From: Prorocentrum cordatum
Taxonomy: Eukaryota
Direction of reading: 5' to 3'
Length of the DNA: 55,808 nt
Assembly (NCBI GenBank): GCA_963575745.1
Contig: CAUYUJ010000131.1
Span: 62,001-117,808, forward strand
Numbering within the stretch: position 1 is the stretch's first letter; the number at the start of each line of letters is the position of its first letter. The notes beneath the pieces were generated by a model. It made no database searches. It was given only the letters and a program-made list of their open reading frames with translations, and was not told where the DNA came from. The position numbers and the translations under genes were made by a program. Positions 13,408 to 35,808 of the stretch are shown one piece after another.

Positions 13408-13451
13408 ACCGTAGCCATTTTGGCTCAAGCCATTTTGGCTCAAGGCTCAAG
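13408..13451 (+). other. Dinoflagellate spliced leader (full 22 nt) plus two relict SLs
   Basis: ACCGTAGCCATTTTGGCTCAAG (13408-13429), CCATTTTGGCTCAAG (13430-13444), GCTCAAG (13445-13451). No GT donor follows, so this is not an SL RNA gene. Confidence 0.95.
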
Positions 13452-17055: not shown

Positions 17056-19056
17056 ATGCCGCCCCAGAGACGCCGCCGCAGCGAGCATGGGCGCGATGAG
17101 CGCCGTAGTCGCAGTCGGAGGCGGCGCGGCAGCACCAGCAGCAGCTCGCCCCCGAGGCGCCACCGCAGCCGCGCGAGGCCCAGGCCCAGCAAGTCCCAGT
17201 ACCCCTCGGGCCGCGGCCGCAGGTCCTCCAGCTCAAGTTCCTTACCCCCGCTGGCCAGCGGCGAGCCGCTGAGCGAGGTTGGCGGTGGTGGCGCGCCCAG
17301 CCCGTGCAGGCTCTCCGTCGCGCTGGGGGAGCTCATCCCGACGTCCCCGCCCCCGGGTAACTTCAGCATCCCTGGTGTGACGGGCAAGGCGCGGCCGGCG
17401 GCCCCGGCTCACGCTTTGTCGCCTGGCACCCCGCAGGCCGCTCGTCACGCCAGCGCGCCGCCTGGGCAGTGGCTGGGGGCATCACCGGCGTCGCCGCCGC
17501 CGCCACCGCCGCCTCCGCCGCCTCCGCCACAGGAGGACCCGCCGCAAGCCCCGTGCACCCCGACACCGGTTGCGTCTACCCCCTCCGGGAGCCCACGCCC
17601 CGCCTCCCCAGGGCCGCCGACCCTGAGCCCGCCGCCGCTTCCGGCGGGCTGGGAAAGCCGGCGCGACCCATACAACGGCCAGCTCTACTTCATTCACAGG
17701 ATCACGAAGGAGAGCCGTTGGGACCACCCAGCCGCGTCGCAGGCAGCGCCCTCGGATGGCGCGGGCGTGCCCCGTGCCTCCCCCGTGGCCGCGCCAGCCA
17801 AGGCGGCCCCGCGCGCGCAGCCCGACCGCGGCGGGGAGGGGCTGCCGACTGCCGCGGCTCAGGCTGCCCAGGCAGAGGCCCCCCCCAGTGAGCTCCAGTC
17901 CCTGAAGGAGTCCTTGTTCAAGCTCCAGCGCGAGAGGCCGGCGTGGGATTGTTACGCGGGCGAAACAGGCCAGAAGGTGTGGCTCCAGAGGAGCACCGGT
18001 GCAGTCCAGGCGACGGAACCCCACGAGGTCGCGGCGCACTTAGCCGAGGTTGCTAGCTTGCGGAATCGCCTGGCAGTTCTGGAGGGCCGCGCCCCGCCCG
18101 CGTGCCCGCCCACCAGCCAGTCGATAGCGGCGTCCACGCGCGTTGACTCTCAGACACGCGAGGTGCTCAATAGGAGGTTGGAGGCGGAGTCTGTGGAGCA
18201 GGCCCTCCTCCAGGCAGGGCGCGACAGTCTGCACAGCGCTGGCGCGCCTGCCCCGGCGGCGCCGGCGCTAGCCGAGCCCCGTGCCCCAGGCTTGGCTGCG
18301 GGCGCAGGCCCGCTTTCTTCGTTCATGCTGCGCGCGCAGCCCGCGTTCGTTGACCCCCGGGCGCGCGCGGTGGTCAAGAGGAGGCTGGAGGAGGAGGCTG
18401 TTGAGCAGGCCCTCCTCCAGGCGGGGCGCGACGATTTGCGCGTTGTTGGCGCCCCCGCCCGCGTGGCGCCGCCGCATGGCGCGCCTCAGGCCCCCGGGGC
18501 TCCGATCGCTGACCCGCTTGCCTCGGCCACGCTGCGCACGCAGGCAGAGCTTGATTCGGCAGTGGGGGGTTGGCAGCGCCAGCTGCGCGCCGCTGTGGGA
18601 GAGAGTAGGGACGGCCGCATCAGCATGGAAGCGGCGTTTTTGGTGAGCGCGTGCACGGCTCAAGAGGATCTCCACCGCATTGTCGGTGCGATGGGGGTCG
18701 ACATCGTGCATGGTGACACTCGCGGCCGAGCCGCCGCAGCAGCGCGCCCGGCCCCTCCCTTTGCCGTAGTGACGGGCGACTTCCATCAGCCAGGGCTGGA
18801 AGTCACGTTTAAAGTCGCCCCCGTGGCCAAATTGAGCATCCAACTAGTCAATAAAAGACAGGGCCGCGTGGTGGTCAAAGGCCGCCGGGGGGCCATGGAA
18901 GCGAATATCGAGGAGCTGCTGATGTATCTAGGGCCTGTGACCGAGCTGCGCGCCGCGGCGCCACCTGTGCAGCAGGTGGGCACCCCCGTGCCAGCCGTGC
19001 GCTTGTCGGCCCGGGAGCGCCTCGTGGGCGCCGAGGGCCTGCCCGGCTTTCAGTAG
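17056..19056 (+). CDS. LINE ORF1-A, 666 aa: RS-rich N-terminus, poly-Pro, WW domain, WW-like/coiled coil, conserved C-terminal domain
   Basis: PLPAGWESRRDPYNGQLYFIHRITKESRWDHP is a canonical WW; C-terminal GDFHQP..EVT...IQLVNKRQGR.VVKG.R...ANIEELLM.LGPV.E is conserved with copy B. Confidence 0.85.
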   Translation: MPPQRRRRSEHGRDERRSRSRRRRGSTSSSSPPRRHRSRARPRPSKSQYPSGRGRRSSSSSSLPPLASGEPLSEVGGGGAPSPCRLSVALGELIPTSPPPGNFSIPGVTGKARPAAPAHALSPGTPQAARHASAPPGQWLGASPASPPPPPPPPPPPPQEDPPQAPCTPTPVASTPSGSPRPASPGPPTLSPPPLPAGWESRRDPYNGQLYFIHRITKESRWDHPAASQAAPSDGAGVPRASPVAAPAKAAPRAQPDRGGEGLPTAAAQAAQAEAPPSELQSLKESLFKLQRERPAWDCYAGETGQKVWLQRSTGAVQATEPHEVAAHLAEVASLRNRLAVLEGRAPPACPPTSQSIAASTRVDSQTREVLNRRLEAESVEQALLQAGRDSLHSAGAPAPAAPALAEPRAPGLAAGAGPLSSFMLRAQPAFVDPRARAVVKRRLEEEAVEQALLQAGRDDLRVVGAPARVAPPHGAPQAPGAPIADPLASATLRTQAELDSAVGGWQRQLRAAVGESRDGRISMEAAFLVSACTAQEDLHRIVGAMGVDIVHGDTRGRAAAAARPAPPFAVVTGDFHQPGLEVTFKVAPVAKLSIQLVNKRQGRVVVKGRRGAMEANIEELLMYLGPVTELRAAAPPVQQVGTPVPAVRLSARERLVGAEGLPGFQ

Positions 19057-19198
19057 GTGAACGCCCTGTCAGGCGTCGGCGGGGGCCGCTAGCTGCGCCC
19101 CCCGTCGGGGCAGGGGAGTGGCAGTTCCTTTCTTTTTTGTTTTTTGTGCTTTCCTTTTCCTACCAGCGCCCGCCGCTCCTGTCCCCTTTTTTTATAAA

Positions 19199-19380
19199 TC
19201 GGCCTCGCGAAGCCTAGATGCGTTGAGCAGCGCGCGCTCACGCAGATCTGCATGCGCTTGCCCGACTTGCAGGCTAGGGCTCTAGCGTTAATTCATCCTG
19301 CATAAAAAGATTGCCTTTTGCATTGCGTTTGGGAGAACGGCCAGGCCTGGGCGCGATGCGAACGGTAAAAGAGGCCTCGG
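19199..19380 (+). ncRNA. Conserved structured inter-ORF RNA element, copy A
   Basis: 66-nt core differs at only 5 positions from copy B; compensatory and G-U-consistent changes; long flanking hairpin. Confidence 0.65.
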
Positions 19381-19955
19381 AGCTTGCTTGCGCTGCCTCT
19401 CTTTGTTGCCTTGCATTGTCGCGCGCGCGGGCCAGGGGCAGTTGCTGAGCATGGCAAGTGCGTGTTGCGCGCGCACGGGTGCGCGTTGCATGGGGGTGCG
19501 CGCTGGTCTGCGCTCCGCTCGTCCTGTCGTCCTGTGTCCTTGGTACGTCGCTCGCCATGCAAGTGTGACAGTGCAGGGAATTGTTCGTCGTCGTCCACTG
19601 CCCCTCTGAGCCCTAGTAGCGAGGCGCCTTCTGGTTCCCCGCCTCCCCCTCATGCCGAATGCCGCCCGCCCTCGGGCGAGTCGGCCTACCCCTGCTTAAG
19701 GTGTCGTGGAAAACGCGATGGCGGACCCCGGGCCGTCGGATCGTGGAGTGGCCTGCGGGCCCAGGGTTTGGCTGACCCTGGGCCACCGGACCCTGGGACG
19801 TGTCGGTTGGCTTAGGGCCGGGGCCCCCCTCCCCCTCCCCCTCCTCCTCATGGCCGCGTTGGAGCCCGTGACCCCCCCCTCCCGCCCTCCCCCCAGCAGC
19901 CGCTCTCTGAGAAACGGGGGGGGGAGCTGCCCGGCCGCGCGTCGTGGGCCGAGCG

Positions 19956-22900
19956 ATGGCGACTGAGGCTACCAGCTGCGTGCGGCGGGACCAGCGGGGA
20001 GAAACCCAGCGGCAGTTGAGCCCTTTTCGCGCCTTCTGCCAGGCGTGGCTGGCGCGAAGCCCCCGCAGGCTGGAGGCCGCGGCGGCCCTGCGCGATGCCC
20101 TGGCACTCTTGGAGCTCTTGCCGCCGCGCCCTGACCACATGCTGCAGGAAGGGGGGTCCGCGCTACGAGCGCTTTGGGCCTTTGCGGATGAAGTGGCTTA
20201 TATCTTGCGGCGAATCCTCGTTCCGCCCTTGCGTGCATTGGGACAGCATGCCGCAGCGGTAGGTTCGCCATTTGCCGGACCTCCGCCTGTCGAGGAGGTA
20301 GGCCCAGAGCGTGAGGCCTCCTGTGTCCCCCCCGCCCGCTCCGTCCTTCGTCTTGGCACTCTGAACCCGGGCCGGTGCGGTTTTCTCCAGTTAGGCGCCG
20401 ACCAGCTTCTGGAATGGCGTCTCGAGGCAGTCGCTTTTGCCCTGGACGCTCAGTCGGTTGACATCTGCATCCTCCCGGGGGCGCGGTTTCCCGAGGGCGC
20501 AACGCTTCCCCAAGGTTTCCCATATTGCTGGGATGGGGCGCGCTCGGGGTCGTGGGATTCGGTAGGCATCTTTTTCCGCCCCGAGGTAGAACACATGCTG
20601 CGCCCGGTGCCGGATTTTTCTTCAAACCGGGAGCAGTGGTTTGAGGTTTGGGGCGGAGGGGCCGCGCCCAGTCCTGCTGTCATCCTTTGCGCGTTCTACC
20701 CGAAGCACGGCGGGGACACAGACACCTGGAAGTCCATTGTAGCGCATGCGGCTTTATGTCGTCATCGGTACCCGCGGGCGCGCTTGATTTTAGGCGGAGA
20801 TGCAAATGTCCATTTGGACTATCTTGCTGACCATGTGGAGCCTTGTAGCTGCGCGCACTGCAAGCAATCCCCTGCAGACAGAGAGATCCAACAGTGGCTT
20901 GTGGCTGCAGGGCTTGGGGCTTTTAACCCCCCCGCGCCAACGCATGTGTCTGGCACCTGCATCGACCTTTTCATAGGCATGAGAGATTCGCCCCTTCCTG
21001 TCAAGGTCCTGCCGGATTTTATTGCGCTCTCCGACCACCGACTCGTCATGGCAGAGGTGCCCTGCCAGTTCACGGCCCCGTGGGCGGCGGGCTACGGGAG
21101 GGTCGCCTGGACGTCCGGACCCAGGTGGGACGAGGGCCTGAGGGAAATCTCCGGCACCCTCAGTGCGCTGAGCGAGAGCGTGGAAGCAATTACATGCGCC
21201 CCTTGGCTTCAGCCACCGTGGTTCGGAGGCAGGGCCAGCAGAGTGCAAAGGCGCGCCGTGGTTAACGTTGCGGCTTGGGCTCGCGATGCCGCCTACACCA
21301 TGGTGGGACACGCAGCGGGTGCCACCAAGGTGATAGGGGGCAAGCGTCGCCTCTCGCAGACCACTGCGCGTAGGTTGCTGAACCCAGCGTGTTTCACCTC
21401 GCATCAAGAGTTTAAGCTTGAAGTTGCGCGCGCAGCGTGGGGGGAGCGTAGGAGAGCCGCCCACCGCTATTTGCATTTGCGCGAGGCCAACCCCGGGGCC
21501 GCGGAGAGGTTCCTGTCGAGCTTCTTCCAGGTGCGCACCCGTTTTGAGGTGAGGCTGTCGGACCCGTCCACGGGGGCCGCGCTTACGCCCAGTGCGATGG
21601 TTGAGGCTGTCAGGCAGGATCTGTTTGCACGCGATCGCAATGACTTTGAGCAGGATCCGGGGGCCGAGGAGGCCATGGCACGGCAGGTTTCTTTGATCCG
21701 CAGCGCGGGTGCCCTCGAAGGCGCACCAGCCCGAGCTCCACCTTACACGGATGACGAGGTGCATGCTGTGTTGAGCGCTCTCAAGCCAGGCAAACGCACA
21801 ATTCATGGGTGTTACGCCGCCTTGCGCGCAGAGTCACCAGCGGGGGTACGGCTGACCAAGGCCCTAGTGAACCTCGCTCGCGCCGCCGGCGTGACCGCGA
21901 AAATCTGGTCACTCAGGCAGATCACCCCATTGCGTAAGTGCGGCCCAACCACAGTGCGCGCACTCTCCGCCCTGCGGCCAATTTCCATTGCAACGGAGAT
22001 GGCATCGGTACAAGACGCTCTCTGGATAGCCCGAAATAGCGGTGCGCTGGAGGCGTATTGTGGGCCTTGCCAGCAGGGGGGAGTCGGCGACGCCCTCACC
22101 CTAGTAATCGGCCTCGTCGTGCACGCCCAGCTGCGGCATGCGCAGGGCCTCCACACTTGGTGGGCTCTAGCAGATGGCAAGTGGGCTTTCGACGTGGCGT
22201 CCCGCCACGCCATGTTGGTGGGCGTGTACAACGCCGGAGTCCGCGGGCCTGATTGGCTCATTTTGGACGACGTGTTGGCGCAAGACCATCAGTGCCTGTC
22301 TTTGCATGGGCTGCTGAGCCCCGTTTTTATGCTTTCGCGCGGTACAGCTCAGGGCAGGCGGTTTTCTGTGCACGCTTTTAACACCCAGCTCCGTGGGCTT
22401 GCGGATGACATCGCAAAAGTGCTCCCGGAGGGGTGCAGCACGATTGTGCCTCCATTTGCTAGGGCAGCGCTCCTTGACGCGGAGGAAGTCACGCCGCCGG
22501 CGCAATGCGTTGAGCCGCCGCGGGGGGAGCTGCAGCTTGACGGGGTCGTGCAGGAGGTGTCGCTTTTGGCGGCGGCTGAGGAGTCGCCGTGGCCCCAGGC
22601 GAGGCGCTTCCTGCGCGGCGTCCTCAGCGCGCTGTCGTCGCAGGCTGATCGGGTTGCCGTGACAGAGCGTTTGGGGGCTTACCACGTGGAGTCACCGCAA
22701 TTCGTGGATGACATCACAACGCCCTGCCCGTCAGAGGGGGCCGTTAGGGCCGTTCTGTCGGAGGAAGAGTGGTCGGCGTGCAGCCGATACGCACGGCGCG
22801 TGAGGGCCCGCTTCAACTATGATAGGGGGAAGACGGCAGTCCTGCCCCTTCTGGACGCCCCCCCGCCCTTGCTAGCTGGAGCCCCTGTGGTGCGCGCGAA

Positions 22901-24029
22901 AGGGCTTCTAGGAGTTCTAGTGGACTCGGGCCTCACGTTTCTGCCGTTGCTGCACAGTACGCTCGCGAGGGGCAGGTCGCTGTTTGACGAACTTTTGCAG
23001 GCGGCGGAGTGCGGGGGCTTCTCCATCCCAGTTGCCGCAGCTCAAGTCCCTCCCCGCATTGAGTCGGTAATCCTATACGCTTCCCCGTTGTTGGCCCTAG
23101 CCGAGGGGGCTGAAGGGGCCCTCAACCGCTCACAGGTAGAGTGGGGCCGCAAGCTGCTGGGCTGCAATGCTGGCCCGCCCGTGCGTCACAGCGTGGTCGT
23201 GGCCCAATGCGGGTGGCCTTTGAGGCTGGGCACGAAGTTTCTTGAGCGTGCCTTGCTAGCGCGAGCCAGGCTCGCAGTCCTCCCGCTCGACCACCCGGCG
23301 TCCCGAGCCTGGCAGGCATCCCGGTGCCTGCACGCCCCCTCTTGGGTTACTGCGGTAGCTGCGCTCGCTGGCCGCCTTCCGTCGCCGCCAGTGCAACTGG
23401 ACCGACACCCGGCATGCGCTGGGGAGCAGTTGGAGGCTGCGCGCGCCCATCCAGCGAGGCGCAGGGCCCTCCTGGAGTGGTACCGCTGGCAGGTCGTGCG
23501 CCCAGCGCTGTTGGAGTATGACCGGCAAGCATTCAGGAAGGCAGCGTCATGTGTTCTCCCGGCGTTGCGCCGTTCCTTCGCTGAGCTTTGCCCGGGCCCG
23601 TCCCTCCCTGACTGGAATCTTCTGGGCTGGGAGTCGTCTCCAAACTTTTGGAAGCATTACCGGTTGTGGGCCGTCATACGCATGACGGGCTGCTGGCCCC
23701 TTGCCGTGCTTGGCCAGGGTGGGCTGCCAGCCACGCTCTCGCGGTGCGGGGCATGCGGAGCGTCGAATGTAGCAGTCGACCATCCCCTGGTAGCGTGTCA
23801 GGCCACGGTTCAGCACCGTGCCCTCCTTGCGCGCGACGGCCCGCCCATGCAGGGCGCCGCCCCGGAGTTCGCCTTACAAGTCCTTTTTTCCGAGGGTCTC
23901 CCGTCGCGTGCGCGTGCTGCGCACGTCAGTTACGTGGGCGCTGCAGTTTTGCAGGCTGCTTGGCCAGCGCCGCCCCCTCCGCCTCCGCCTCCCCCTCCGC
24001 CTCCCCCCCCGCGCGCCCCCCCGAGCTAG
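19956..24029 (+). CDS. LINE ORF2-A, 1357 aa: APE-type endonuclease, reverse transcriptase, C-terminal Cys/His knuckle
   Basis: EN: GTLNPG, AFYP, GGDANVH, CIDLF, LSDH. RT: LRPIS, ADGKWAFD, GTAQG, QFVDD, LLGV. Knuckle: CGAC..DHPLVAC. Confidence 0.93.
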   Translation: MATEATSCVRRDQRGETQRQLSPFRAFCQAWLARSPRRLEAAAALRDALALLELLPPRPDHMLQEGGSALRALWAFADEVAYILRRILVPPLRALGQHAAAVGSPFAGPPPVEEVGPEREASCVPPARSVLRLGTLNPGRCGFLQLGADQLLEWRLEAVAFALDAQSVDICILPGARFPEGATLPQGFPYCWDGARSGSWDSVGIFFRPEVEHMLRPVPDFSSNREQWFEVWGGGAAPSPAVILCAFYPKHGGDTDTWKSIVAHAALCRHRYPRARLILGGDANVHLDYLADHVEPCSCAHCKQSPADREIQQWLVAAGLGAFNPPAPTHVSGTCIDLFIGMRDSPLPVKVLPDFIALSDHRLVMAEVPCQFTAPWAAGYGRVAWTSGPRWDEGLREISGTLSALSESVEAITCAPWLQPPWFGGRASRVQRRAVVNVAAWARDAAYTMVGHAAGATKVIGGKRRLSQTTARRLLNPACFTSHQEFKLEVARAAWGERRRAAHRYLHLREANPGAAERFLSSFFQVRTRFEVRLSDPSTGAALTPSAMVEAVRQDLFARDRNDFEQDPGAEEAMARQVSLIRSAGALEGAPARAPPYTDDEVHAVLSALKPGKRTIHGCYAALRAESPAGVRLTKALVNLARAAGVTAKIWSLRQITPLRKCGPTTVRALSALRPISIATEMASVQDALWIARNSGALEAYCGPCQQGGVGDALTLVIGLVVHAQLRHAQGLHTWWALADGKWAFDVASRHAMLVGVYNAGVRGPDWLILDDVLAQDHQCLSLHGLLSPVFMLSRGTAQGRRFSVHAFNTQLRGLADDIAKVLPEGCSTIVPPFARAALLDAEEVTPPAQCVEPPRGELQLDGVVQEVSLLAAAEESPWPQARRFLRGVLSALSSQADRVAVTERLGAYHVESPQFVDDITTPCPSEGAVRAVLSEEEWSACSRYARRVRARFNYDRGKTAVLPLLDAPPPLLAGAPVVRAKGLLGVLVDSGLTFLPLLHSTLARGRSLFDELLQAAECGGFSIPVAAAQVPPRIESVILYASPLLALAEGAEGALNRSQVEWGRKLLGCNAGPPVRHSVVVAQCGWPLRLGTKFLERALLARARLAVLPLDHPASRAWQASRCLHAPSWVTAVAALAGRLPSPPVQLDRHPACAGEQLEAARAHPARRRALLEWYRWQVVRPALLEYDRQAFRKAASCVLPALRRSFAELCPGPSLPDWNLLGWESSPNFWKHYRLWAVIRMTGCWPLAVLGQGGLPATLSRCGACGASNVAVDHPLVACQATVQHRALLARDGPPMQGAAPEFALQVLFSEGLPSRARAAHVSYVGAAVLQAAWPAPPPPPPPPPPPPPPRAPPS

Positions 24030-24623: not shown

Positions 24624-24820
24624 TTTTTTTTTCTTGGCCTCTGCATCGGCGGCCACAGGTCGAGCGCTCGCCGCGCGCCGCGCGGCGCGCGCCCGGCCCG
24701 CGGGCCCCCACGGCGCCCGAGCGCGTCCCCCAAGAGAGAGGTGGACGAGATGGAACGCAGGGTGCCCCCGTCTCGGGTCGGGTCTTTCACCGCCCTTCGT
24801 AGGGCCCCCCGTGAGAATAT
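24624..24820 (-). other. Conserved structured motif B, copy 2, ending in a short A tract
   Basis: Homologous ends to 10270-10435; lies 3' of the minus-strand ORF2 fragment and ends in AAGAAAAAAAAA. Confidence 0.6.
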
Positions 24821-25679
24821 GAATACTCGCAGCCAACGCCGATCCACCCTCCCACGTGCACCCCGAGATGACGGCACCAGCCCTCAAAAAAGCGAGTGGC
24901 CGGCCCCCCCATCCCAAGGGAGACGCATGGGGGTTGGCCCCGCGCGTGCGGCCGGCAAAGGGAGTGGAGAGCATGACAAACAACAAGAAGACGAACAAGG
25001 ACAATTGAGTGCAAAAGCAAACAACAAAAAGAGGGCAAAGCAGATGCATCGGATAGGACACGTGGCCTAGACCCAGTACACTGTGCCCTGTGAGCGGTAC
25101 AAAATATCCAAGAACGACGACCGCAGTACGACTGTGAAGCAGGAGTAAGATCAACAAAAGGTGGAAACACAGGAACAAAAAGAAAGTGTAATGTGAATAG
25201 GCACAAACACTGCATGGTAAAGAAGAAGCTGTAAAGACGGCCAAACAAGGAGAGGGGCAGAAGGAAGAAGAAGAAAGGCACGAACGAAGGCAGGGACAAG
25301 GAAGGGAGGGGGAGGGGCGCAAGGGGGAGGAGGGACAGGGCAGAGAACGCGGGTTCGGCCTTGGGGAAAGGGTTCCACACAGGAATCGCCCTTCTGGTCT
25401 GCAGGACCGACGGGGGGCGCACCGTCAAACCAGGGGACGGAATTAGCACTGCTGGAAAAAAAAAAACATCATACGAGAGGGCACGGCACACCACGGCAAA
25501 CACCAAACAGCACGACACGGCACGGCCACGCAGACAGAAACGGCACGTTATTTACAAAGGCACGCACACACGGGAGCGACAATCTTCCATTCAAGTGAAG
25601 CATGGAAAATGAGAGCAACAGAGAAGAGAGATGATGATGGAAAGGGGCAGCAGGGGTGCACTGTAATGTTTCCTGGCCG

Positions 25680-26130
25680 TCCTGCCTTCGTGCTCGCGGC
25701 GCTCGACCAGCGGCCGGCTGTGATGGAAGAGAAACTCTGAGACTTGGGCGCCACAGGAGGGCGGAGGCAGAGGTAGCCGGGACCAGAGGGGAGCCCGGTG
25801 AGTGGCTGTCGCGGGGCACGCGTAAAGGGCGTGCCAGATGTCCACGTCCAGCGCGCCGCAGCTGCCGCAACGCGGCAGGGTGGTAACGCAAAGCGGAGCT
25901 CCCAAGACCTGAAGCGGCCAGCAGCCCGACACGCGAACAACCGCCCACAAGCGAAAGTGAAGCCACGAGGCAGGCCCAAAGGCACGGTCCAGCATGTCCC
26001 ACTGCAGCCCTGGCAACCCTATAGGCCAAGCCAAGAAAGGCAAGCGAAAGACAGGCAAGGCAGCGGCAGTCGCCCGTTGGAACGCGGCAAGATTAAGCGC
26101 CCGCGAAGGGCCAATCAACCACGTCCGGGA
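25680..26130 (-). pseudogene. 3' end of ORF2 of an older antisense member of the same LINE family
   Basis: FRLWAVVRVSGCWPLQVLG...LPRCGSCGALDVDIWHALYACPAT aligns with YRLWAVIRMTGCWPLAVLG...LSRCGACGASNVAVDHPLVACQAT of ORF2-A. Confidence 0.88.
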
Positions 26131-27241: not shown

Positions 27242-27464
27242 GCCCGTTGCTTTGCTTCTCTGCTTGTCTGCGTGAGTCGATTCCTCGAGGGAGCGTGCCG
27301 GCAACACGGCGGCAGCTGGGAAGATGGCGGGGGCGGCCATCTTCCCACCCCGTCTGGGGGTGCCCACCCCGGCGTTCGGCCGGGGGGACCGGGGGGACGT
27401 GGGGCATGCGGCAGGTGGGAAGACGTGAGGGGCGCCCATCTTCCCACCCCCCTGGGCGTCGCCG

Positions 27465-27501
<37 letters not shown>

Positions 27502-28883: not shown

Positions 28884-30518
28884 ATGCCGGTGGAGCGCAA
28901 CAGGAACCGGGACCGGGAGCGGAGCCGTAGTCGTGATCGGGACCGGGACCGCGACCGGGATCGCGACCGGGACCGCGACCGGGACCGGGACCGGGACCGG
29001 GACCGTGGCCGCCGGGACCGTCGGCGCCGCTGCAGCTCAAGGTCTTCTGAGCAGCCGGCCCCTGAGCAGACGTGTAGCCCGACAGAAGTGGCTGACTCGC
29101 CAGAGCGTGGCTTGTCGGCTGAGCTGAGTGCCATGCTGCCGTCTCAGCCAGTTACCCCGCGCCCGATTGAGGCCCCCCCCGGGGACTTCAGCGCTTTCCC
29201 CGGGGCGGCGCCGAAGGCTCGTGCAGTGCTCTCCCCGGCGCCCCCGGCGCGCGGCTTGGCGGTCTCTCCGCCGGAGGGGTGGGTCGGCGCGGCGCCTTTG
29301 TCGCCGCTGCCACCGCCCCCGCCGCCGCCGCCGCCGCCTGTCGCAGCGAATTCACCGGTGAGGCGGCAGCCCGCCCCCGAGGCGAAGTCCCCGGGCCCTC
29401 CGGACTTGTCGCCGCCGCCGCTGCCGGCGGGATGGGAGTCTCGCCGTGCGCCGTCTGGGGCTTTGTTCTTCCAGAACAGGCGTACAGGGGAAAGCCGGTG
29501 GGACCACCCGGGCACGGGCCCTGCTCTCCCAGTTCCGGCCCCTGCCCGCGCCACCGCAGACGCATCTGCTGCTCCGGAGGGGGCGCCGCCGGGGGGCGCG
29601 GCGACCCCGCCGATGGCAGCGTGGGCGAGGGCCGCGTTGCAGCTCACAGCGCCTGTGGTGGTGGCACCCGTGGCGGCTTCACCTGAAGCGATCCGTTCGC
29701 TGCGCCTGGAGCTGGAGGCCCTTCAGGCAGCGCGTCCGGATTGGGAGGAGTTTCGCGACCCCACCGGGGGCCAGATTTTGTGGTTCCAGAGGTCTACCCA
29801 GCAGGTGGTGATGCACCGGCCACCTGAAGTTGCAGCGTGGATCTCCCGCACCGCCGCCTTGAATGAGGAGATCAGCGAGCTATCGCGGTCCCGCGACCGC
29901 TCGCCTGCCGGGGTCCCGGCCGGCCCCGCTTCGCAGGCTCCCCCCCTGCAGGACGCGGCGGCTGGTGGCGCTGTGCCAAATGACGCCGCGCTTGCGACCC
30001 CCGCCCAGTCGCTCGCGCGTTTCACCAGGGCATCTGAGCTAGATGGGGCCGTGGGTGCCTGGCACAGCAGGCTCCACACTGCGGTGGGGGGGTCGACGGA
30101 CGGTCGCGTTGCCATGGAGGCGACGTTCCACACGCGGTGCTTGTCCCAGGGCGACCTGCATGCAATCGTCAGGGCGATGGGCGTCCACATCGAGGCTGCG
30201 GCTCCGAAGGGGCGCGGGGCACGGCCCGCCCTGGCCCCGCCTTTTGGCTTTGCCACGGGCGATTTTCATCAGCCCGCCGTCGAAGTCACTTGGAGGACGG
30301 GGCCGTTACTGAAGCTCACGATACAGCTCGTGAACAAGCGGCAGGGGCGCATTGTCGTCAAGGGCAAGAGGGCGGCTTTCGACGCCAATTTGGAAGAGCT
30401 CTTAATGTTTCTGGGGCCTGTCGCCGAGATTAGGACGGCTACGGCCCCGGCCCCGGCAGTGCACGGCGCCCCGGCCCCCCCGCGCGTGCGGGCGCGGGAC
30501 ATGTTGGGCCCTGGCTAG
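28884..30518 (+). CDS. LINE ORF1-B, 544 aa: RD/RS repeat, poly-Pro, WW, WW-like/coiled coil, conserved C-terminal domain
   Basis: PLPAGWESRRAPSGALFFQNRRTGESRWDHP; collinear with ORF1-A. Confidence 0.85.
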   Translation: MPVERNRNRDRERSRSRDRDRDRDRDRDRDRDRDRDRDRDRGRRDRRRRCSSRSSEQPAPEQTCSPTEVADSPERGLSAELSAMLPSQPVTPRPIEAPPGDFSAFPGAAPKARAVLSPAPPARGLAVSPPEGWVGAAPLSPLPPPPPPPPPPVAANSPVRRQPAPEAKSPGPPDLSPPPLPAGWESRRAPSGALFFQNRRTGESRWDHPGTGPALPVPAPARATADASAAPEGAPPGGAATPPMAAWARAALQLTAPVVVAPVAASPEAIRSLRLELEALQAARPDWEEFRDPTGGQILWFQRSTQQVVMHRPPEVAAWISRTAALNEEISELSRSRDRSPAGVPAGPASQAPPLQDAAAGGAVPNDAALATPAQSLARFTRASELDGAVGAWHSRLHTAVGGSTDGRVAMEATFHTRCLSQGDLHAIVRAMGVHIEAAAPKGRGARPALAPPFGFATGDFHQPAVEVTWRTGPLLKLTIQLVNKRQGRIVVKGKRAAFDANLEELLMFLGPVAEIRTATAPAPAVHGAPAPPRVRARDMLGPG

Positions 30519-30796
30519 TCTCGCCGCCCCACCCCCGCTTGCCTCGCCAGCAAGCGCTCGCGGCCCGGTTGGAGACCGGTGTCCTCGTTGAAGCCTCCTA
30601 GTGAGTCGTGTGCCCCACTCCAGCGCCCCCCTCTAATGTCGGCGTCGCCAGCGGGGGAGGGGGTGGGCGTGCCCCCGTCGCCCCCGCTGTCGGGGCGGAC
30701 AGCCGAAGCTCCTGTCCAGTTTGCCTGTCGCACTTGTTCTTTCCTCGATCTCCTTATGCCCTGTCATTGCCCGGGCTACGACGTTGTTTTTTCTCT

Positions 30797-30976
30797 TCGG
30801 CCCCGAGAAGCCTAGATGCGCGATGCCGCATGAGCTCGCGCAGATCTGCACGCGCTTGCCCGACTTGCAGGCTAGGGCCCCAGCGCTAATTCGTCCTGCA
30901 TAAAGAGTGTCTTTGGACGTGGCGCTTGGGGAGCGGCAAGGCCCGGGCGCGTTGTGCAAAGGAAAAGGCGCCTCGC
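30797..30976 (+). ncRNA. Conserved structured inter-ORF RNA element, copy B
   Basis: Homologous to 19199-19380. Confidence 0.65.
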
Positions 30977-31587: not shown

Positions 31588-31845
31588 ATGTCGCCGTGTG
31601 GTCGTGTCTTTCCCAGGCCACAGTGTTGCGCGCACGCAAGTCCCCACGTGCTTACATTCTATTGTCCCGTTGTCCCCTTCTCACGCCGTGTTGTGCTTGC
31701 ATGCAAAATCCTGCCTTGCAGCGGCGATGCGGCCCCCGCCCCTTGATTGCTTGCTGCGCCGTCGTCGTCGTCTCGCATTTCCCCTACCCCGTGCCACCCC
31801 TGCTCCGATAGGGCTCGAGCTAACGCCCTCTGGAGCGCCGAAGCG

Positions 31846-34800
31846 ATGGATCGCCGACGCGCCCCCTGGGAGGAGGAGGCGGCGACGCGCTCGCGGATGC
31901 GAGCGGAGGCCGCGCAGTCCCAGGCCCCGCTTCGTGAGAAGGCCATGCGGTGGTTAGGTGCGCCCCAGAGCCGCGCGGAGTTGGCGGCCGCCTCCAGGGA
32001 CTTCCTAGCCCTGCTGCACCTGGCTCCGGCGTGGCCAGATGGGGTGACTCGCCATGCGGGCACCGAAGCTGGCCCCCTATGGGCCTTCGCAGTGGAGCTG
32101 CAACATTTTCTCGCGCGCGCGCTGCTCCCGTCGCTGATGGCGCTTCCCGGGATCTCTCGCATTGTGGGGGGGCCCTACGTTGGGGGAGTTCCCCAGGCTG
32201 CTGCCGCAGAAGCGGCTGGGCGCGTCCTGGGGCCTGTCCCGCCCGCGCGCCCACTCTTCCGCATTGCCACGCTGAACCCGGGCCGCACGGGTTTTCTGCA
32301 CCTTGGTACGGACTTAATTCTTGAGTGGCGCCTGGAGGCAGTCGCACACGCTCTTGTCGAGCATGGCGTTGATGTCTGTATCCTGCCTGGCTCGCGGTTC
32401 CCGCCGGGCGCGTGGTTACCGCCAGGCTTTCCTTTTGTTTGGATTGGCCCGACGTCCACGGAGTGGGACACCGTGGGCCTCTTCGTGAGGCCCGAGTTGG
32501 AGCAGGCTGTCAGATTCGTTCCGGAGGCGTCGTCGGCGCGTGAGCAGTGGTTTGAAGTTTGGCCCTCCGCGTCGGCGCGCTCTCCGTGCCTCGTTCTCTG
32601 TGCCATGTACCCTGTCCATGGAGGAGACAGGGACACGTGGTCCTCTATCGTTGCCCATGCCGCGGAGTTTCAGGCCAAGTACCCGCTTGCCCGGCTTTTA
32701 ATTGGGGGTGACGGGAACGTGCACCTCACATACGTCGTCTCGCATGCGGTGACCTGCCGCTGCCTGCACTGCTCCCAACGCGGCCCTGACAGAGATATCC
32801 AGGCACTGCTGGACAGGGCTAACCTCAGGGCGTTCAACCCCCCCAAGCCGACCCACTCCTCCGGCACGTGCATTGACATTTTTATAGGTTTGCGCGGCGA
32901 CCCCCTACCTGTCCAGGTGGTGGAAGATTTCATAGCCCTTTCGGATCACAAGCTCGTCCTACTGGATGCGCCCTGTCTGGTCGAGCCGCACTTGGCCGCT
33001 GGCTTTGGTCGAGTAGCGTGGACCTCAGGTGCTGAATGGGAGGCCAGCCTCAGTGAGGTTGCGCCAACTTTGGCCGCGCTCGCCCACGCGGTTGAGCTTC
33101 TCCTGGAGTCCCAGTGGTTGCGCCCGGCCTGGCACGGAGGCTCGGCCACGAGGCTCCATCGCCGCGCAGTCCTAAATGTGGCTGCATGGTGCCGCGATGC
33201 AGTGTACACTATTGTTGGCCATGGCTCAGGAGCTGTCCGCCTTGTCGGGGGACCCGCGAGAGCGAGGGCACCAGCTGCGGTGCCGCTAGCCCCCTCCGCT
33301 TTTTCTAGCTTTGCTGACTTTAAACGGGCGACTGAAGAAGCAGCCTGGCAACAGCGTCGGAAGTCGGTGCACCGTTACCTACGCCTCCGGGAAATTAATA
33401 AAGGCGCCGCGGAGCGCTTCTTGTCTGGATTTTTCAAGGACGCGGACAGATTTGATATCCAGCTCGTCAGCCCAGTGACAGGGCGCACCCAGTCCACGAG
33501 CGAGATGCTCGATGCAATTCAGGCGGACCTGTTGGGGCGCGCTCAGAACGATTTCCCCCAATGCCCTGTGGAGAGGGACCGCATGTCTCGCGTGGTCTCA
33601 GGGATCCGGCGCGCAGGAGCCGCGTCCGGGCCCGAGCGCGCGCAGCCACTGTACAGCGAGACCGAAGTCGAAGAGGCCATTGCCTTGTTGAAGCTTGGTA
33701 AACGGACTGTGCATTTGTGCAACGCAGCGGTGAAGGCGCCAGTTCAAGAGGGTTTCCGCCTAACGCGGGCGCTGTTGAACTTGGGCCGCCGCCTTTGTGT
33801 CACGTCTCGCTTCTGGTCTCTCCGGCAGTTTTCACCTCTTCGGAAATCAGGCCCTCCCGTGGTCAGAAAGGTCTCTGCCCTTCGACCCGTGTCCTTCGCC
33901 AGCGACATGGCGTCTGTGCAAGACGCTTTGTGGATAGCGCGGAATGGGGCCCTCATTGAGGCATATTGCGGTGCAGCCCAACAGGGCGGGGTTGGAGACC
34001 CTGTATCCCAGGTTCTTGCCCTTGTCCTCAATGCGCAGCTACGACGCGCGTTTGACTGCCCAACCTGGTGGGCCATAGCTGACAATAAATGGGCTTTCGA
34101 TGTCGCCTCGATCGACGGCATGCTCCTCGGTGCATACAGCGCCGGGGTCGAGGGGGCCGATTGGCTCCTCTTGGACGACATCCTGGCCCAAGACCAACAG
34201 ACAGTGGGGCTCCACGGCCTGCTCTCTCCGGTCTTTTTCTTGAAATGTGGAACTGCCCAAGGTCGTCGCTTCTCCGTGCATATTTGTAACGCGCAGCTAC
34301 GCGCGCTGCGTGACGAAATCTCGGAAGCACTACCCGGTGGATGCGCTTCCTGCATCCCGCTGCTGATCAGAAGCGCCCTTTTGGATGCGGCCATTGCTAC
34401 GCCCCCCGCATGTAGGGAAAGCATGCCCTGGCGAGACCTGCCGGTTCAGGAGTTTAAGTCGAGTGTTGCGGGCATCTTAGAGCAGGCGGCCCCCCTTGCG
34501 GCGTCTGCTGAAGAGCGGCTCCGTGGCGTCTTCCAACGCCTCCCGGTGGAGGCGGACCGAGTGGCGCTTGCCGAGGCTACAGGGTCTTTCCATTTGCCTC
34601 CGGTTCAATTTGTCGACGATATCACCACGCCGTGCCCGTCTGAGGGCGCCGTGCGGGCAGTGATCTCCGATGAGAGCACCTCGGCATGTAGTCGCTATGC
34701 GTTCCGCATGAAGTCCTCGTTCACGTATGAGCGTGACAAGACATGCGTTTTGCCCTTGCTTGGTGCCCCGATCCCAGGCCGACCAGGTTGCCCAGTCGTA

Positions 34801-35808
34801 TCTCAGAAACACCTCCTCGGTGTTCTTGTCGATTCAGGGCTGACTTTTGGCCCGCTGCTGAACGAGCTCTGTGCTATCGGCGACTCCTGTTTCAAGAAGT
34901 TGCTTTTCGCGGCGGAGAGCGGAGGTTTTTCTGTGCCGGTGGCGGCCGCGCAGGTGCCGCCTCGTGTTGAGGCAGCTGTTCTTTTTGCGTGTCCGCTCCT
35001 TGCAGGAGTCCCTGGCGCCGAGGCTCGTTTCAACAAGCTTCAGGTGGGGTGGGGCCGCCGACTGCTGGGATGCCACGGCGGGCCGCCCATCAAGCACGTC
35101 GTGGTGGTCGCGCAATGCGGCTGGCGCATGCGAATGGGCACCCGGTTCATCGAGCGTGCGCTCATGGCTCGGGCTCGGCTAACCGTGCTCCCGCCCGACC
35201 ATCCTGGCGCAATCATGTACCGTGCTTCGCGCGCCCTCTGCGTCCCCACCTGGCTCTCGGACGCAGCGGCGCTGGCTTCCCGCCTGCCAGACCCGCCTCC
35301 TGACCTGGATTCTCACCCTTTGTTTCCCCCGGAGGCCCTCCGCGCTGCCCAGCTCGACCCAGCCCGAAGGAAGGTCCTCCTGCGGGAGTATCGGCGCTTT
35401 GCCTTGCGCCCGGCACTCCTCAGATACGACCAGCAGGCCTTCGCAGCGGGGGCCTCGCGGGTTTTGCCGAGCCTCAATCGGTCCTTTGCAGCGCTGTGCC
35501 CTGGTCCAGCACTCCCCGATGAGGGCATGCTGACCTGGGAGCCGGGGCCCTCCTTTTGGAGGTACTACCGTCTTTGGGCAGTCGCCCGGATGACGGGGGC
35601 ATGGCCGCTGCCTGTGTTAGGCGAGGTGGAACTCCCAGAAACCATCCCAGTGTGCCGTGCATGCCGCAGGCGCGGTGTCTCGCTCCGGCATGTCCTCGTT
35701 CGCTGTCCGGCCTTAGACCGGGCGCGCAAGGCACTGCCAGGCGTGGGGGAGGGCCGCGTTGGGCCGTCCGTCACTCCTGACTTGCTCTTGCAGATGCTTT
35801 TTTTGTGA
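31846..35808 (+). CDS. LINE ORF2-B: APE endonuclease, RT, knuckle; frameshift in a T run near the C-terminus
   Basis: ATLNPG, GGDGNVH, LSDH, LRPVS, ADNKWAFD, GTAQG, QFVDD, CRAC..RHVLVRC. The homologous tail (FCEGAEPVARASHIVFVG) continues in another frame to ~35960. Confidence 0.92.
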   Translation: MDRRRAPWEEEAATRSRMRAEAAQSQAPLREKAMRWLGAPQSRAELAAASRDFLALLHLAPAWPDGVTRHAGTEAGPLWAFAVELQHFLARALLPSLMALPGISRIVGGPYVGGVPQAAAAEAAGRVLGPVPPARPLFRIATLNPGRTGFLHLGTDLILEWRLEAVAHALVEHGVDVCILPGSRFPPGAWLPPGFPFVWIGPTSTEWDTVGLFVRPELEQAVRFVPEASSAREQWFEVWPSASARSPCLVLCAMYPVHGGDRDTWSSIVAHAAEFQAKYPLARLLIGGDGNVHLTYVVSHAVTCRCLHCSQRGPDRDIQALLDRANLRAFNPPKPTHSSGTCIDIFIGLRGDPLPVQVVEDFIALSDHKLVLLDAPCLVEPHLAAGFGRVAWTSGAEWEASLSEVAPTLAALAHAVELLLESQWLRPAWHGGSATRLHRRAVLNVAAWCRDAVYTIVGHGSGAVRLVGGPARARAPAAVPLAPSAFSSFADFKRATEEAAWQQRRKSVHRYLRLREINKGAAERFLSGFFKDADRFDIQLVSPVTGRTQSTSEMLDAIQADLLGRAQNDFPQCPVERDRMSRVVSGIRRAGAASGPERAQPLYSETEVEEAIALLKLGKRTVHLCNAAVKAPVQEGFRLTRALLNLGRRLCVTSRFWSLRQFSPLRKSGPPVVRKVSALRPVSFASDMASVQDALWIARNGALIEAYCGAAQQGGVGDPVSQVLALVLNAQLRRAFDCPTWWAIADNKWAFDVASIDGMLLGAYSAGVEGADWLLLDDILAQDQQTVGLHGLLSPVFFLKCGTAQGRRFSVHICNAQLRALRDEISEALPGGCASCIPLLIRSALLDAAIATPPACRESMPWRDLPVQEFKSSVAGILEQAAPLAASAEERLRGVFQRLPVEADRVALAEATGSFHLPPVQFVDDITTPCPSEGAVRAVISDESTSACSRYAFRMKSSFTYERDKTCVLPLLGAPIPGRPGCPVVSQKHLLGVLVDSGLTFGPLLNELCAIGDSCFKKLLFAAESGGFSVPVAAAQVPPRVEAAVLFACPLLAGVPGAEARFNKLQVGWGRRLLGCHGGPPIKHVVVVAQCGWRMRMGTRFIERALMARARLTVLPPDHPGAIMYRASRALCVPTWLSDAAALASRLPDPPPDLDSHPLFPPEALRAAQLDPARRKVLLREYRRFALRPALLRYDQQAFAAGASRVLPSLNRSFAALCPGPALPDEGMLTWEPGPSFWRYYRLWAVARMTGAWPLPVLGEVELPETIPVCRACRRRGVSLRHVLVRCPALDRARKALPGVGEGRVGPSVTPDLLLQMLFL

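What the first reader, a model, noticed from the sequence alone, without database searches (positions are those of the whole stretch)
19199..19380. Highly conserved pseudoknot-capable RNA between ORF1 and ORF2 (also 30797-30976)
Seen: a 66-nt core (19241-19306) is 61/66 identical between copies although surrounding spacer DNA does not align. It can form AYG/CRU (compensatory U-A to C-G), CGCU/AGCG and GCCC/GGGC stems. The loop UGCAGG can pair with downstream CCUGCA, giving a pseudoknot. A covarying hairpin lies 5' and a long G-U-rich hairpin with loop GARCGGCMAGG lies 3'. A pyrimidine tract precedes it in both copies. Inference: an IRES-like element, a self-cleaving ribozyme (partial HDV- or pistol-like features, no clean match) or a trans-splicing signal that releases ORF2 mRNA.
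Basis: partly seen in the sequence, partly recalled or inferred. Interest (0 to 1): 0.8.

Follow-up and report, generated by a model that had tools for sequence, protein, structure and literature searches.

The report
Conserved RNA block between retroelement ORFs
Two old, diverged copies of a dinoflagellate LINE-like retroelement share one almost unchanged 180-base non-coding block between their two genes, probably a folded RNA signal of unknown family that acts at the boundary between the two messages.

Summary
Two units (ORF1 with a WW domain, then an L1-like endonuclease/RT ORF2) are only 54-55% identical in protein. Their 0.9-1.3 kb ORF1-ORF2 spacers do not align, except for one block (19199-19380 and 30797-30976). 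Its 66-nt core is 61/66 identical, more conserved than any coding stretch of the units. Third-codon positions are as conserved as the others, so it is not coding. It is not a repeat: there are two copies in the window and two variants in four sequencing runs.

Evidence for RNA structure is modest. Single-sequence folds are no better than shuffles. After moving one gap, the consensus (closing stem plus three hairpins) has 6 double-compensatory pairs (null mean 2.3, P about 0.01-0.02). The plus strand scores better than the minus strand. The proposed pseudoknot lies in invariant sequence and cannot be tested.

No Rfam family matches, so membership of the HDV-like, pistol and IGR-IRES families is not supported. 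An IRES is unlikely: 7-10 upstream ATGs and 576-870 unconserved nt separate the block from the ORF2 start.

Best guess, held with low confidence: a cis-acting RNA processing module at the cistron boundary. No RNA data and no further copies could be obtained.

The parts
17056..19056 (+). ORF1 of unit A (666 aa). It has a WW domain and a conserved C-terminal domain of unknown fold.
   Evidence: ORF. (PF00397, E 5.5e-10). (55% identity to ORF1-B over the C-terminal 177 aa); model pLDDT 62, no fold match at E<=0.001.
19127..19195 (+). Pyrimidine/T-rich tracts directly 5' of block A.
   Evidence: Read. The counterpart in B is 30735-30796.
19199..19380 (+). Conserved block, copy A. Closing stem 19201-19206 / 19371-19376. 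HP1 19212-19251. HP2 19254-19288 with an invariant 13-nt loop at 19264-19276. Linker 19289-19312, whose CCUGCA (19297-19302) can pair with loop UGCAGG (19268-19273). HP3 19313-19366. AAAAG at 19367-19371.
19241..19306 (+). 66-nt core, copy A (61/66 identical to 30839-30904).
19871..19899 (+). C-rich pyrimidine tract with AG at 19895-96 and 19898-99, 57-60 nt upstream of the ORF2-A ATG. No ATG lies in between. Candidate spliced-leader acceptor (inferred).
19956..24029 (+). ORF2 of unit A (1357 aa): endonuclease plus L1-like reverse transcriptase.
   Evidence: 54% identity to ORF2-B. (PF14529 weak in A; PF03372 above its cut-off in homolog P0007). (family profile hits the RT part of human LINE-1 ORF2p chains, E 0.005-0.08).
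29112..30518 (+). ORF1 of unit B. The open frame starts at 27792; homology to ORF1-A starts at about 29112. It has a WW domain.
30797..30976 (+). Conserved block, copy B. Closing stem 30799-30804 / 30967-30972. HP1 30810-30849. HP2 30852-30886 with loop 30862-30874. CCUGCA at 30895-30900. HP3 30910-30962. AAAAG at 30963-30967.
31770..31811 (+). Pyrimidine-rich tract with AG at 31810-11, 35 nt upstream of the ORF2-B ATG. No ATG lies in between. Candidate spliced-leader acceptor (inferred).
31846..35808 (+). ORF2 of unit B (1320 aa).

Best explanation
What it is. The block is an old, selectively maintained, plus-strand RNA domain of about 180 nt. It belongs to the transcript of a dinoflagellate LINE-like two-ORF retroelement and was inherited from the common ancestor of units A and B. 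I put this general claim at about 0.65.

Anatomy. A closing stem encloses three hairpins. The tips of the outer two hairpins are free to vary. The middle hairpin, its 13-nt loop and the following linker are almost invariant. The loop and the linker can form a 6-bp pseudoknot. The same linker segment can alternatively pair with the 5' GCAG.

Favoured mechanism (about 0.35-0.4). The block is an RNA processing module at the cistron boundary. The unit is transcribed through both ORFs, and the block marks where the ORF1 part of the transcript is ended or cut. This could happen by directing 3'-end formation: a U-rich tract lies directly 5' of the block, and the dinoflagellate poly(A)-site motif AAAAG sits at its 3' edge. 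Or it could happen by cutting itself. ORF2 would then be expressed from its own message, trans-spliced at the pyrimidine-AG site 35-60 nt upstream of its ATG.

Shown: the conservation, the non-coding nature, the low copy number, the modest covariation, and the presence of the motifs. Inferred: every step about transcripts, cleavage, polyadenylation and trans-splicing.
For: Constraint
- The core is 61/66 identical, while the proteins are 54-55% identical and the rest of the spacer does not align.
- Inside the block, the tip of HP1 is only 9/18 identical. Unconstrained positions are therefore saturated, and the identity of the core is constraint rather than youth.

Not coding
- Of the 5 core differences, 3 fall on second codon positions, 1 on a first and 1 on a third position of the only frame open in both copies.
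- 16 of 17 third positions in that frame are identical.

Structure
- On the re-gapped alignment the consensus energy is -53.15, against -42.7 +/- 4.7 for column shuffles (z -2.2, P 0.02).
- 6 pairs changed on both sides, 4 on one side, none broken. The same procedure on shuffles gives a mean of 2.3 double changes, with P(>=6) of 0.012-0.016.
- The minus strand gives z -1.4.

Context for a processing role
- The block begins 143 nt (A) and 279 nt (B) after the ORF1 stop, directly after T-rich tracts.
- It ends at an AAAAG conserved in both copies (19367-71; 30963-67). Passages of PMC2488372 give AAAAG/C as the motif at the exact poly(A) site in several dinoflagellates.
- Each ORF2 ATG has a conserved context, and a pyrimidine tract plus AG lies 35-60 nt upstream with no ATG in between.
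- 7 (A) and 10 (B) ATGs lie between the block and the ORF2 ATG. This argues against ORF2 being reached by ribosomes that start at or near the block.
- The block is the only conserved thing in the spacer.
Against: - Only two copies exist, so all covariation rests on n=2.
- The structural significance appears only after I moved one gap by hand. On the plain MAFFT alignment z is -0.63.
- Single-sequence folds are no more stable than shuffles.
- Ordinary dinoflagellate genes need no such block for polyadenylation or trans-splicing. Passages of PMC2488372 report no consensus beyond AG and AAAAG/C.
- AAAAG is a 5-mer and could be chance. The second A-run (AUAAAAAG, 19303-09) is AUAAAGAG in B.
- A retroelement needs a full-length two-ORF RNA to copy itself. 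Obligatory cutting between the ORFs would be costly.
- Known LINE ribozymes sit at the element's 5' end, not between the ORFs (abstract of PMC8501958; the other cases are recalled).
- No Rfam family matches.
- No RNA run was available, so no transcript end is mapped.
Confidence: 0.37

Rival explanations
1. Translation element. The block recruits or redirects ribosomes on a bicistronic RNA so that ORF2 is made (IRES-like, shunt or reinitiation enhancer).
For: - It lies between two ORFs of a LINE-like unit.
- Its size (about 180 nt) and pseudoknot potential recall the roughly 190-nt intergenic IRES of dicistroviruses (abstract start of PMC10275262 in the listing).
- Mouse L1 is reported to have IRESs upstream of both ORFs (abstract start of PMC3592465).
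- The conservation and covariation are as given above.
Against: - The block is 576 nt (A) and 870 nt (B) from the ORF2 ATG.
- The sequence in between does not align, holds 7 and 10 ATGs, and in B carries a lineage-specific repeat insertion.
- No conserved ORF starts at the 3' edge of the block.
- No Rfam IRES family matches, apart from a 12-bit partial IRES_mnt row far below its cut-off.
Confidence: 0.1
2. RNP assembly or packaging site. The invariant loop and linker are a binding site for the element's own ORF1 or ORF2 protein, or for a host factor, marking the full-length RNA for retrotransposition.
For: - Near-invariance of positions that are unpaired in the nested fold: HP2 loop 13/13, linker 20/24. 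This fits sequence-specific recognition.
- The variable hairpin tips with compensatory stems fit a scaffold that presents a site.
- Recalled precedent, from no call: a conserved 5' pseudoknot RNA bound by the R2 protein.
Against: - No test of binding was possible.
- The ORF1 C-terminal domain gave a low-confidence model without any fold match, so an RNA-binding fold is not shown.
- RT recognition sites of LINEs are usually at the 3' end. No second copy of the block lies downstream of ORF2.
Confidence: 0.14
3. DNA-level element. The block is an internal promoter or protein-binding site that drives or regulates transcription of the ORF2 part.
For: - The core is conserved regardless of predicted pairing.
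- It holds a perfect 10-bp palindrome (19242-19251) conserved in both copies.
- Recalled precedent: the conserved 77-nt 5' signature of trypanosomatid L1Tc/ingi elements, which acts as an internal promoter.
Against: - Six double-compensatory changes keep pairing in the flanking helices.
- The G-U pairs of HP3 exist only on the plus strand, and the plus strand scores better than the minus strand.
- Nothing is known here about dinoflagellate promoters that could be tested.
Confidence: 0.08
4. No function. The identity comes from a recent patch of gene conversion or recombination between the neighbouring units, or from a small mobile insert acquired by both.
For: - The units lie 11.6 kb apart in the same orientation, which favours conversion.
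- Read on the minus strand, the block is followed by an A-run (A7-G in A, A6-C in B), as a retroposed small RNA would be.
Against: - Identity inside the block is patchy: 22/24, then 9/18, then 61/66, then 50/74. Compensatory changes occur in it. The block is therefore old, not a fresh uniform tract.
- The flanks are only about 60% identical or unalignable, which is poor substrate for conversion.
- It is not repeated. The CM finds only the 2 copies in 55.8 kb; the next hit scores 12.7 bits.
- In three of the four runs laid at >=80% likeness, the only variant letters at the block are those of copy B (one contig per run); the fourth run had no depth there. Contig depth there (13.7 and 20.5 in X1) is like that of the neighbouring sequence.
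- Both copies sit at the same relative place in diverged units.
Confidence: 0.08
5. Passenger RNA or intron feature. The spacer is a spliceosomal intron that joins ORF1 to ORF2, as public gene models draw it. The block is then an intronic element or an embedded small RNA gene.
For: - The gene model P0005 of this very locus, and the models P0002 and P0003 of paralogous loci, run from the ORF1 C-terminus straight into ORF2.
- A closing stem that pairs both ends of the block is typical of stable small RNAs.
Against: - The same model also cuts 'introns' out of the uninterrupted ORF2 (33142-33405 and 33970-34434). It is therefore not evidence of splicing.
- ORF1 has a stop codon, and ORF2 an ATG in a conserved context, at matching places in both copies.
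- No snRNA, snoRNA, tRNA, SRP or other family matches.
- By eye, no C/D or H/ACA boxes (consensus recalled) are conserved in both copies.
Confidence: 0.06

Closest known systems
Self-cleaving ribozymes carried by non-LTR retrotransposons: twister variants of Perere-3 (abstract of PMC8501958); HDV-like ribozymes of R2, RTE and L1Tc (recalled)
   Same: A compact RNA carried by a LINE-type element. The core is invariant, the peripheral helices are variable and covary, and a pseudoknot is possible. It lies upstream of the RT-encoding ORF.
   Different: Those ribozymes sit at the 5' end of the element; this block lies between ORF1 and ORF2. No Rfam ribozyme model matches. The order of the stems does not allow the HDV double pseudoknot. 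Cleavage is untested.
Pistol ribozyme
   Same: By eye only (consensus recalled): a hairpin whose loop can form a 6-bp pseudoknot with sequence a few nucleotides downstream, followed by another hairpin.
   Different: The Rfam pistol model gives no hit in either copy, even at E<=10. The conserved pistol nucleotides and the cleavage site were not identified.
Intergenic-region IRES of dicistroviruses, and the IRESs reported upstream of the mouse L1 ORFs (abstract starts seen in the listing)
   Same: A structured RNA of about 180-190 nt between two ORFs of a bicistronic RNA.
   Different: An IGR IRES abuts the start codon. This block is 576-870 nt away from it, across unconserved, ATG-rich sequence. 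There is no Rfam match.
Dinoflagellate intercistronic processing signals: AAAAG/C at the poly(A) site and an AG acceptor for the spliced leader (passages of PMC2488372)
   Same: The place (after a stop codon, before the next cistron), an AAAAG at the 3' edge of the block, and a U-rich tract before it.
   Different: Ordinary genes show no long conserved or structured element there. A block of about 180 nt with a near-invariant 66-nt core would be specific to this element.

Membership tests
HDV-like ribozymes | Match to a curated covariance model (HDV and the related drz families in Rfam) | tested here: not met
   No match at gathering score in the whole window. None at E<=10 in 341-nt stretches around either copy.
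HDV-like ribozymes | Nested double pseudoknot with strand order P1-P2-P3-P3'-P1'-P1.1-P4-P2' (consensus recalled) | tested here: not met
   By reading. The 4-5 bp stem (19254/55-19258 with 19284-19288) directly flanks the GCCC/GGGC stem, which leaves no room for a P2 strand between them. No 3' P2 partner was found.
Pistol ribozyme | Match to the Rfam model, including the conserved linker nucleotides | tested here: not met
   No hit in either copy at E<=10. Only the hairpin-loop to downstream 6-bp pairing resembles it.
Twister-sister ribozyme | Match to the Rfam model at or near the gathering score, in both copies | tested here: not met
   13.1 bits against a cut-off of 34, E 6.1, on the minus strand of copy A only. 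Nothing in copy B.
Any self-cleaving ribozyme | Site-specific self-cleavage of the transcript | not testable with these tools
   No RNA run holds the stretch.
Dicistrovirus-type IGR IRES | Rfam model match, and position directly at the start of the downstream ORF | tested here: not met
   No match. The ORF2 ATG is 576 nt (A) and 870 nt (B) downstream, with 7 and 10 ATGs in between.
SINE or other small mobile insert | Many dispersed copies at unrelated sites | tested here: not met
   2 copies in the window. In four runs laid at >=80% likeness, only copy-B letters appear as variants, and depth is like that of the neighbouring sequence. 0 hits in the metagenome, genome and viral collections.
Conserved structured RNA (general) | Compensatory base changes beyond chance | tested here: inconclusive
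   6 double changes against a null mean of 2.3, P 0.012-0.016. This rests on n=2 sequences and one hand-moved gap. The MAFFT alignment gives z -0.63.
L1-like non-LTR retrotransposon (the host unit) | Endonuclease of the exo-endo-phosphatase type, followed by a LINE reverse transcriptase | tested here: met
   PF03372 in homolog P0007 (26.4 bits, cut-off 24.5) and a weak PF14529 hit in ORF2-A. A profile of 9 family members hits the RT part of human LINE-1 ORF2p chains, E 0.005-0.08. Pfam RVT_1 itself is not matched.
L1-like non-LTR retrotransposon (the host unit) | Element ends: target-site duplication and a 3' tail | tested here: inconclusive
   Homology between the units runs only from about 17311/29112 to the ORF2 stop. 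No TSD or clear tail was identified.
Spliceosomal intron (as in gene model P0005) | Spliced RNA that joins ORF1 to ORF2 | not testable with these tools
   There are no RNA data. The model also removes parts of the continuous ORF2, so it carries no weight.

The most novel reading that the evidence does not exclude
The block is a new class of self-cleaving or self-processing pseudoknotted RNA. It would split a dinoflagellate retroelement's two-ORF transcript between the cistrons. This would be a ribozyme at an internal cistron boundary rather than at the 5' end of the element, in a lineage where none is described. Nothing in the evidence excludes it. The pattern of an invariant core, variable covarying peripheral helices and pseudoknot potential is what small ribozymes look like, and no known family matches.
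Probability: 0.15. Interest if true: 0.85.

Novelty: new variant of a known kind. Interest (0 to 1): 0.45.

Why it matters
Dinoflagellate genomes are huge and rich in retroelements, and their genes are expressed through polycistronic transcription with spliced-leader trans-splicing. How a two-ORF retroelement gets both proteins made in such a system, and still copies a full-length RNA, is not known.

A non-coding RNA module held almost unchanged while the proteins drifted to 54% identity is a concrete handle on that question. It could be cloned and tested for cleavage, 3'-end formation, protein binding or translation. If it proved to be a ribozyme or an IRES-like element, it would be a new family. 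If it is a processing signal, it would be the first structured one described for dinoflagellate cistron boundaries.

The claim rests on two copies only, so its weight is limited until the family is surveyed.

Tried and rejected
Further copies (all failed)
- Exact 25-mer in metagenome contigs: 0.
- 22-mer in genome contigs and viral contigs: 0 each.
- The search for related loci with the ORF2 N-terminal alignment. The 4-sequence alignment gave 1 metagenome locus of 217 candidate stretches. That locus, L001, has only 119 nt upstream of a match to ORF2 residues 124-240, so it holds no spacer.
- The same query gave none of 18 candidates in viral contigs and none of 17 in genome contigs.
- Covariance model R1 over the window with filters off: only the two training copies, at 214 bits; the next hit scores 12.7 bits, E 0.057.
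- Searches with the translated block, hoping gene callers had translated other copies. The minus-frame 130 aa gave 14 candidates, none scored. The plus-frame 35-aa profile against 1.84 billion proteins gave 3 hits, all tandem-repeat proteins matched in short repeated stretches, judged spurious.
- Earlier findings of this scan: nothing in four look-ups.
- No whole genome is held for this window.

RNA evidence
- No RNA holder is listed among the 12 runs. All four runs laid are contigs, so no transcript ends can be read.

Other tests
- Coding reading: one frame is open through the block in both copies (35 aa in A, 88 aa in B). There is no shared ATG, and third positions are as conserved as the others, so I rejected it.
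- Relic spliced leader in the spacers: none within 3 mismatches. The only relic is at 13409-13451.
- tRNA or tmRNA: none in the window.
- ORF1 relatives of 366-1166 aa: none scored among 8000 candidates. The words were probably swamped by proline- and alanine-rich sequence.
- ORF1 C-terminal fold: pLDDT 62, no Foldseek PDB match at E<=0.001.
- ORF2-A alone against PDB sequences: 0 hits at E<=1. Only the family profile reached L1 ORF2p.
- Homology between the regions upstream of the two ORF1s, or downstream of the two ORF2s: none of note.

Full report
**What the window is.** The best relatives of the long ORFs are unnamed gene products: 7 of 13 hits from Prorocentrum cordatum, 2 of 13 from Polarella glacialis, and 4 unnamed ENA or JGI proteins. 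Three of the P. cordatum models map letter for letter onto this window. The DNA is therefore dinoflagellate, G+C 50-73%. No whole genome is held for it.

**The two units.**
- Unit A is ORF1 17056-19056 plus ORF2 19956-24029.
- Unit B is ORF1 (homology from about 29112) to 30518 plus ORF2 31846-35808.
- Both ORF1s carry a WW domain. They share a C-terminal domain at 55% identity over 177 aa.
- The ORF2s are 54% identical over 1323 aa.
- ORF2 is a LINE-type protein. A homolog passes Pfam's endonuclease/exonuclease/phosphatase cut-off and ORF2-A hits the 'endonuclease-reverse transcriptase' model weakly. A profile of nine family members hits the RT part of five human LINE-1 ORF2p chain sequences, E 0.005-0.08.
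- ORF2-A alone finds nothing in the PDB, and Pfam's RVT_1 is not matched. This is a very divergent L1-like lineage.
- Homology between the units runs only from inside ORF1 to the ORF2 stop.

**The observation.**
- The spacers are 899 nt (A) and 1327 nt (B) and align only in one block, 19199-19380 against 30797-30976.
- The block is 142/182 identical. Its segments are 22/24, then a variable 9/18, then the 66-nt core at 61/66, then 50/74.
- Across a global alignment of both units, the twelve most conserved 66-column windows all fall in the block, with a top value of 0.909. The best coding window reaches 0.758; the mean is 0.495 and the sd 0.153.
- The 40-nt heart of the core occurs exactly twice in the window, against none expected.

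**Not coding, not a repeat, not young.**
- One frame is open through the block in both copies. It has no shared ATG.
- Of the five core differences, three are at second codon positions, one at a first and one at a third. Sixteen of seventeen third positions are identical. That is the opposite of coding constraint at this divergence.
- A covariance model built from the two copies finds only them in 55.8 kb: 214 bits each, next hit 12.7 bits.
- I laid contigs of four public runs on unit A at 80% likeness. At the block, the only variant letters are those of copy B, from one contig in each of three runs; the fourth run (X7) has no depth there. Contig depths there are like those of the flanking sequence. 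This rules out a multi-copy SINE at that likeness.
- The 18-nt tip of the 5' hairpin inside the block is only 50% identical. Free positions are therefore saturated, and the identity of the core is constraint rather than a fresh conversion tract or a recent shared insert.

**Structure.**
- On their own, the two sequences fold no better than dinucleotide shuffles: z -0.72 and -1.04 for the block, and 0.06 and 0.44 for the core.
- RNAalifold on the MAFFT alignment is also unremarkable: z -0.63, SCI 0.57.
- MAFFT, however, puts the 3' hairpin of the two copies one base out of register. After I moved one gap into the hairpin loop, the consensus becomes a closing stem around three hairpins.
- On that alignment the energy is -53.15 against -42.7 +/- 4.7 for column shuffles (z -2.2, P about 0.02). 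The 3' hairpin alone gives z -4.
- In that consensus plus the proposed pseudoknot, 37 of 47 pairs are unchanged, 4 changed on one side, 6 on both sides and none is broken. Sliding the partners by 1-3 columns gives 0-1 double changes.
- Running the same procedure on 500 column shuffles gives a mean of 2.3 double changes, with 6 or more in 1.2-1.6%.
- The reverse complement scores z -1.4. The G-U pairs of the 3' hairpin exist only on the plus strand.
- This is suggestive evidence for a plus-strand RNA fold. It rests on two sequences and one post-hoc gap.
- The pseudoknot (loop 19268-19273 with 19297-19302) lies wholly in invariant sequence. The same 3' segment can instead pair with 19242-19247, which is the MFE of the isolated core in both copies. 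The pseudoknot is therefore possible but untested.
- The 3-bp AYG/CRU covariation is weak. With four T>C changes and one A>G change in the core, some such pairing is likely by chance, and 19253 also finds partners in other models.

**Known families.**
- Rfam has no match at gathering score in the window.
- At E<=10 in short stretches around each copy, A gives a 13-bit twister-sister row on the minus strand (E 6.1, cut-off 34) and a 12-bit partial IRES_mnt row (cut-off 100). B gives nothing.
- The stem order does not allow an HDV-type double pseudoknot.
- The likeness to pistol (hairpin loop pairing with a downstream segment) is by eye only.
- No tRNA was found.
- By eye, no snoRNA boxes are shared by both copies (consensus recalled).

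**Context and mechanism.**
- The block starts 143 nt (A) and 279 nt (B) after the ORF1 stop, right after T-rich tracts.
- It ends at an AAAAG shared by both copies.
- Passages of PMC2488372 report AAAAG/C at the exact poly(A) site of dinoflagellate genes. They report no acceptor consensus beyond AG, and give typical lengths for the 3' UTR, the excised spacer and the 5' UTR.
- Between the block and the ORF2 ATG lie 576 nt (A) and 870 nt (B) that do not align, with 7 and 10 ATGs. In B this stretch also carries a lineage-specific hairpin-repeat insertion.
- Each ORF2 ATG sits in a shared context. A pyrimidine tract plus AG lies 35-60 nt upstream, with no ATG in between.
- I therefore favour a model in which ORF2 has its own trans-spliced message. 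The block is the element-specific module that ends or cuts the ORF1 part of the primary transcript, by directing 3'-end formation or by self-cleavage.
- I give the general claim (a functional plus-strand cis-RNA) about 0.65, and this mechanism about 0.37.
- All transcript-level steps are inference. No RNA run holds the stretch.
- Against the model: ordinary dinoflagellate genes need no such block, the A-run motif is short, and a retroelement must also keep a full-length RNA.

**Rivals.**
- An RNP or packaging site fits the invariant loop and linker, but nothing could be tested. The ORF1 C-terminal domain gave a pLDDT-62 model without a fold match.
- A translation element is disfavoured by distance and upstream ATGs.
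- A DNA-level promoter fits the conserved 10-bp palindrome. It is disfavoured by the compensatory changes and the strand asymmetry.
- A neutral conversion patch or shared insert is disfavoured by the patchy identity and the low copy number.
- An intron feature is what the public gene models draw. P0005 of this locus, and P0002 and P0003 of paralogous loci, run from the ORF1 C-terminus into ORF2. But P0005 also removes parts of the uninterrupted ORF2, so the models are not evidence.

**Limits.**
- Every attempt to find a third copy failed.
- I found no paper describing this element. The searches were: dinoflagellate with LINE, ORF2 and spliced leader; P. cordatum with transposable elements; self-cleaving ribozyme with non-LTR retrotransposon and dinoflagellate; and WW domain with ORF1 and non-LTR retrotransposon, which gave one unrelated hit.

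**Verdict.** This is a real, strongly constrained, probably structured non-coding RNA element of no known family, in the spacer of a divergent dinoflagellate L1-like element. Its function is open. It is worth a family-wide covariation survey and simple bench tests. The ribozyme, IRES and trans-splicing labels are not supported as they stand.

Noticed in passing
window 13409-13451 (+): A stack of relic spliced leaders: one full 21-nt match with 0 mismatches, followed by two truncated repeats of its 3' part. This is the hallmark of a retroposed, re-trans-spliced dinoflagellate mRNA. It lies 3.6 kb upstream of ORF1-A and directly after a 3-kb CA/A-rich microsatellite region (10.2-13.4 kb). Whether it marks the 5' end of unit A is open. 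No such relic lies near unit B or in either spacer.
   Followed up: partly
window 27242-28534 and 31185-31587 (+): 13 copies of a roughly 60-nt unit holding a perfect hairpin (GGGAAGATGG, about 9 nt, CCATCTTCCC). The stretch 27242-27833 upstream of ORF1-B is duplicated at 31185-31587 upstream of ORF2-B (96% and 91.5% identity). Both cistrons of unit B therefore share a leader-like segment that unit A lacks.
   Followed up: partly
window 17056-19056 and 29112-30518: A WW domain in the ORF1 of a LINE-like element. The library search for WW domain with ORF1 and non-LTR retrotransposon gave one unrelated paper. The C-terminal domain has no Pfam, PDB-sequence or fold match.
   Followed up: partly
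window 19872-23718 versus 17102-19813: In run X1, the contig covering ORF2-A from 19872 has word depth 24.7. The contigs covering ORF1-A and the spacer have 10.5 and 13.7. This could mean an extra ORF2-only near-identical copy that begins close to the predicted acceptor site. The tool warns that contig depth is not copy number.
   Followed up: no
window 29106-35622 (gene model P0005; also P0011, P0001): The public gene models of this locus fuse ORF1-B to ORF2-B. They cut 'introns' out of the continuous ORF2 (33142-33405 and 33970-34434) and run on into downstream sequence. They look like prediction artefacts on a retroelement.
   Followed up: yes
window 25708-26058, 36654-37121, 38069-38227 (-): Fragments of further ORF2-like copies on the minus strand, 30-61% identical to family members by tblastn.
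   Followed up: no
window 48790-54134 (-): A run of long minus-strand ORFs. The one at 49960-50910 hits Pfam RVT_1 at E 2.2e-5 (24.7 bits, below the cut-off of 29.6), so this may be a second, unrelated retroelement. It is flanked by roughly 177-nt tandem repeats at 47.6-48.5 kb and 54.8-55.8 kb.
   Followed up: partly
window 10271-10571 and 24628-24961: A 300-nt stretch before the microsatellite and spliced-leader relic is 68.5% identical to a stretch 600 nt after ORF2-A. The two may be flanks or a larger repeat period around unit A.
   Followed up: no
window 19944-19959 and 31834-31849: The sequence context around both ORF2 start codons is shared (CCGA-R-GCG-ATG-G), although the sequence upstream is otherwise unalignable.
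   Followed up: no
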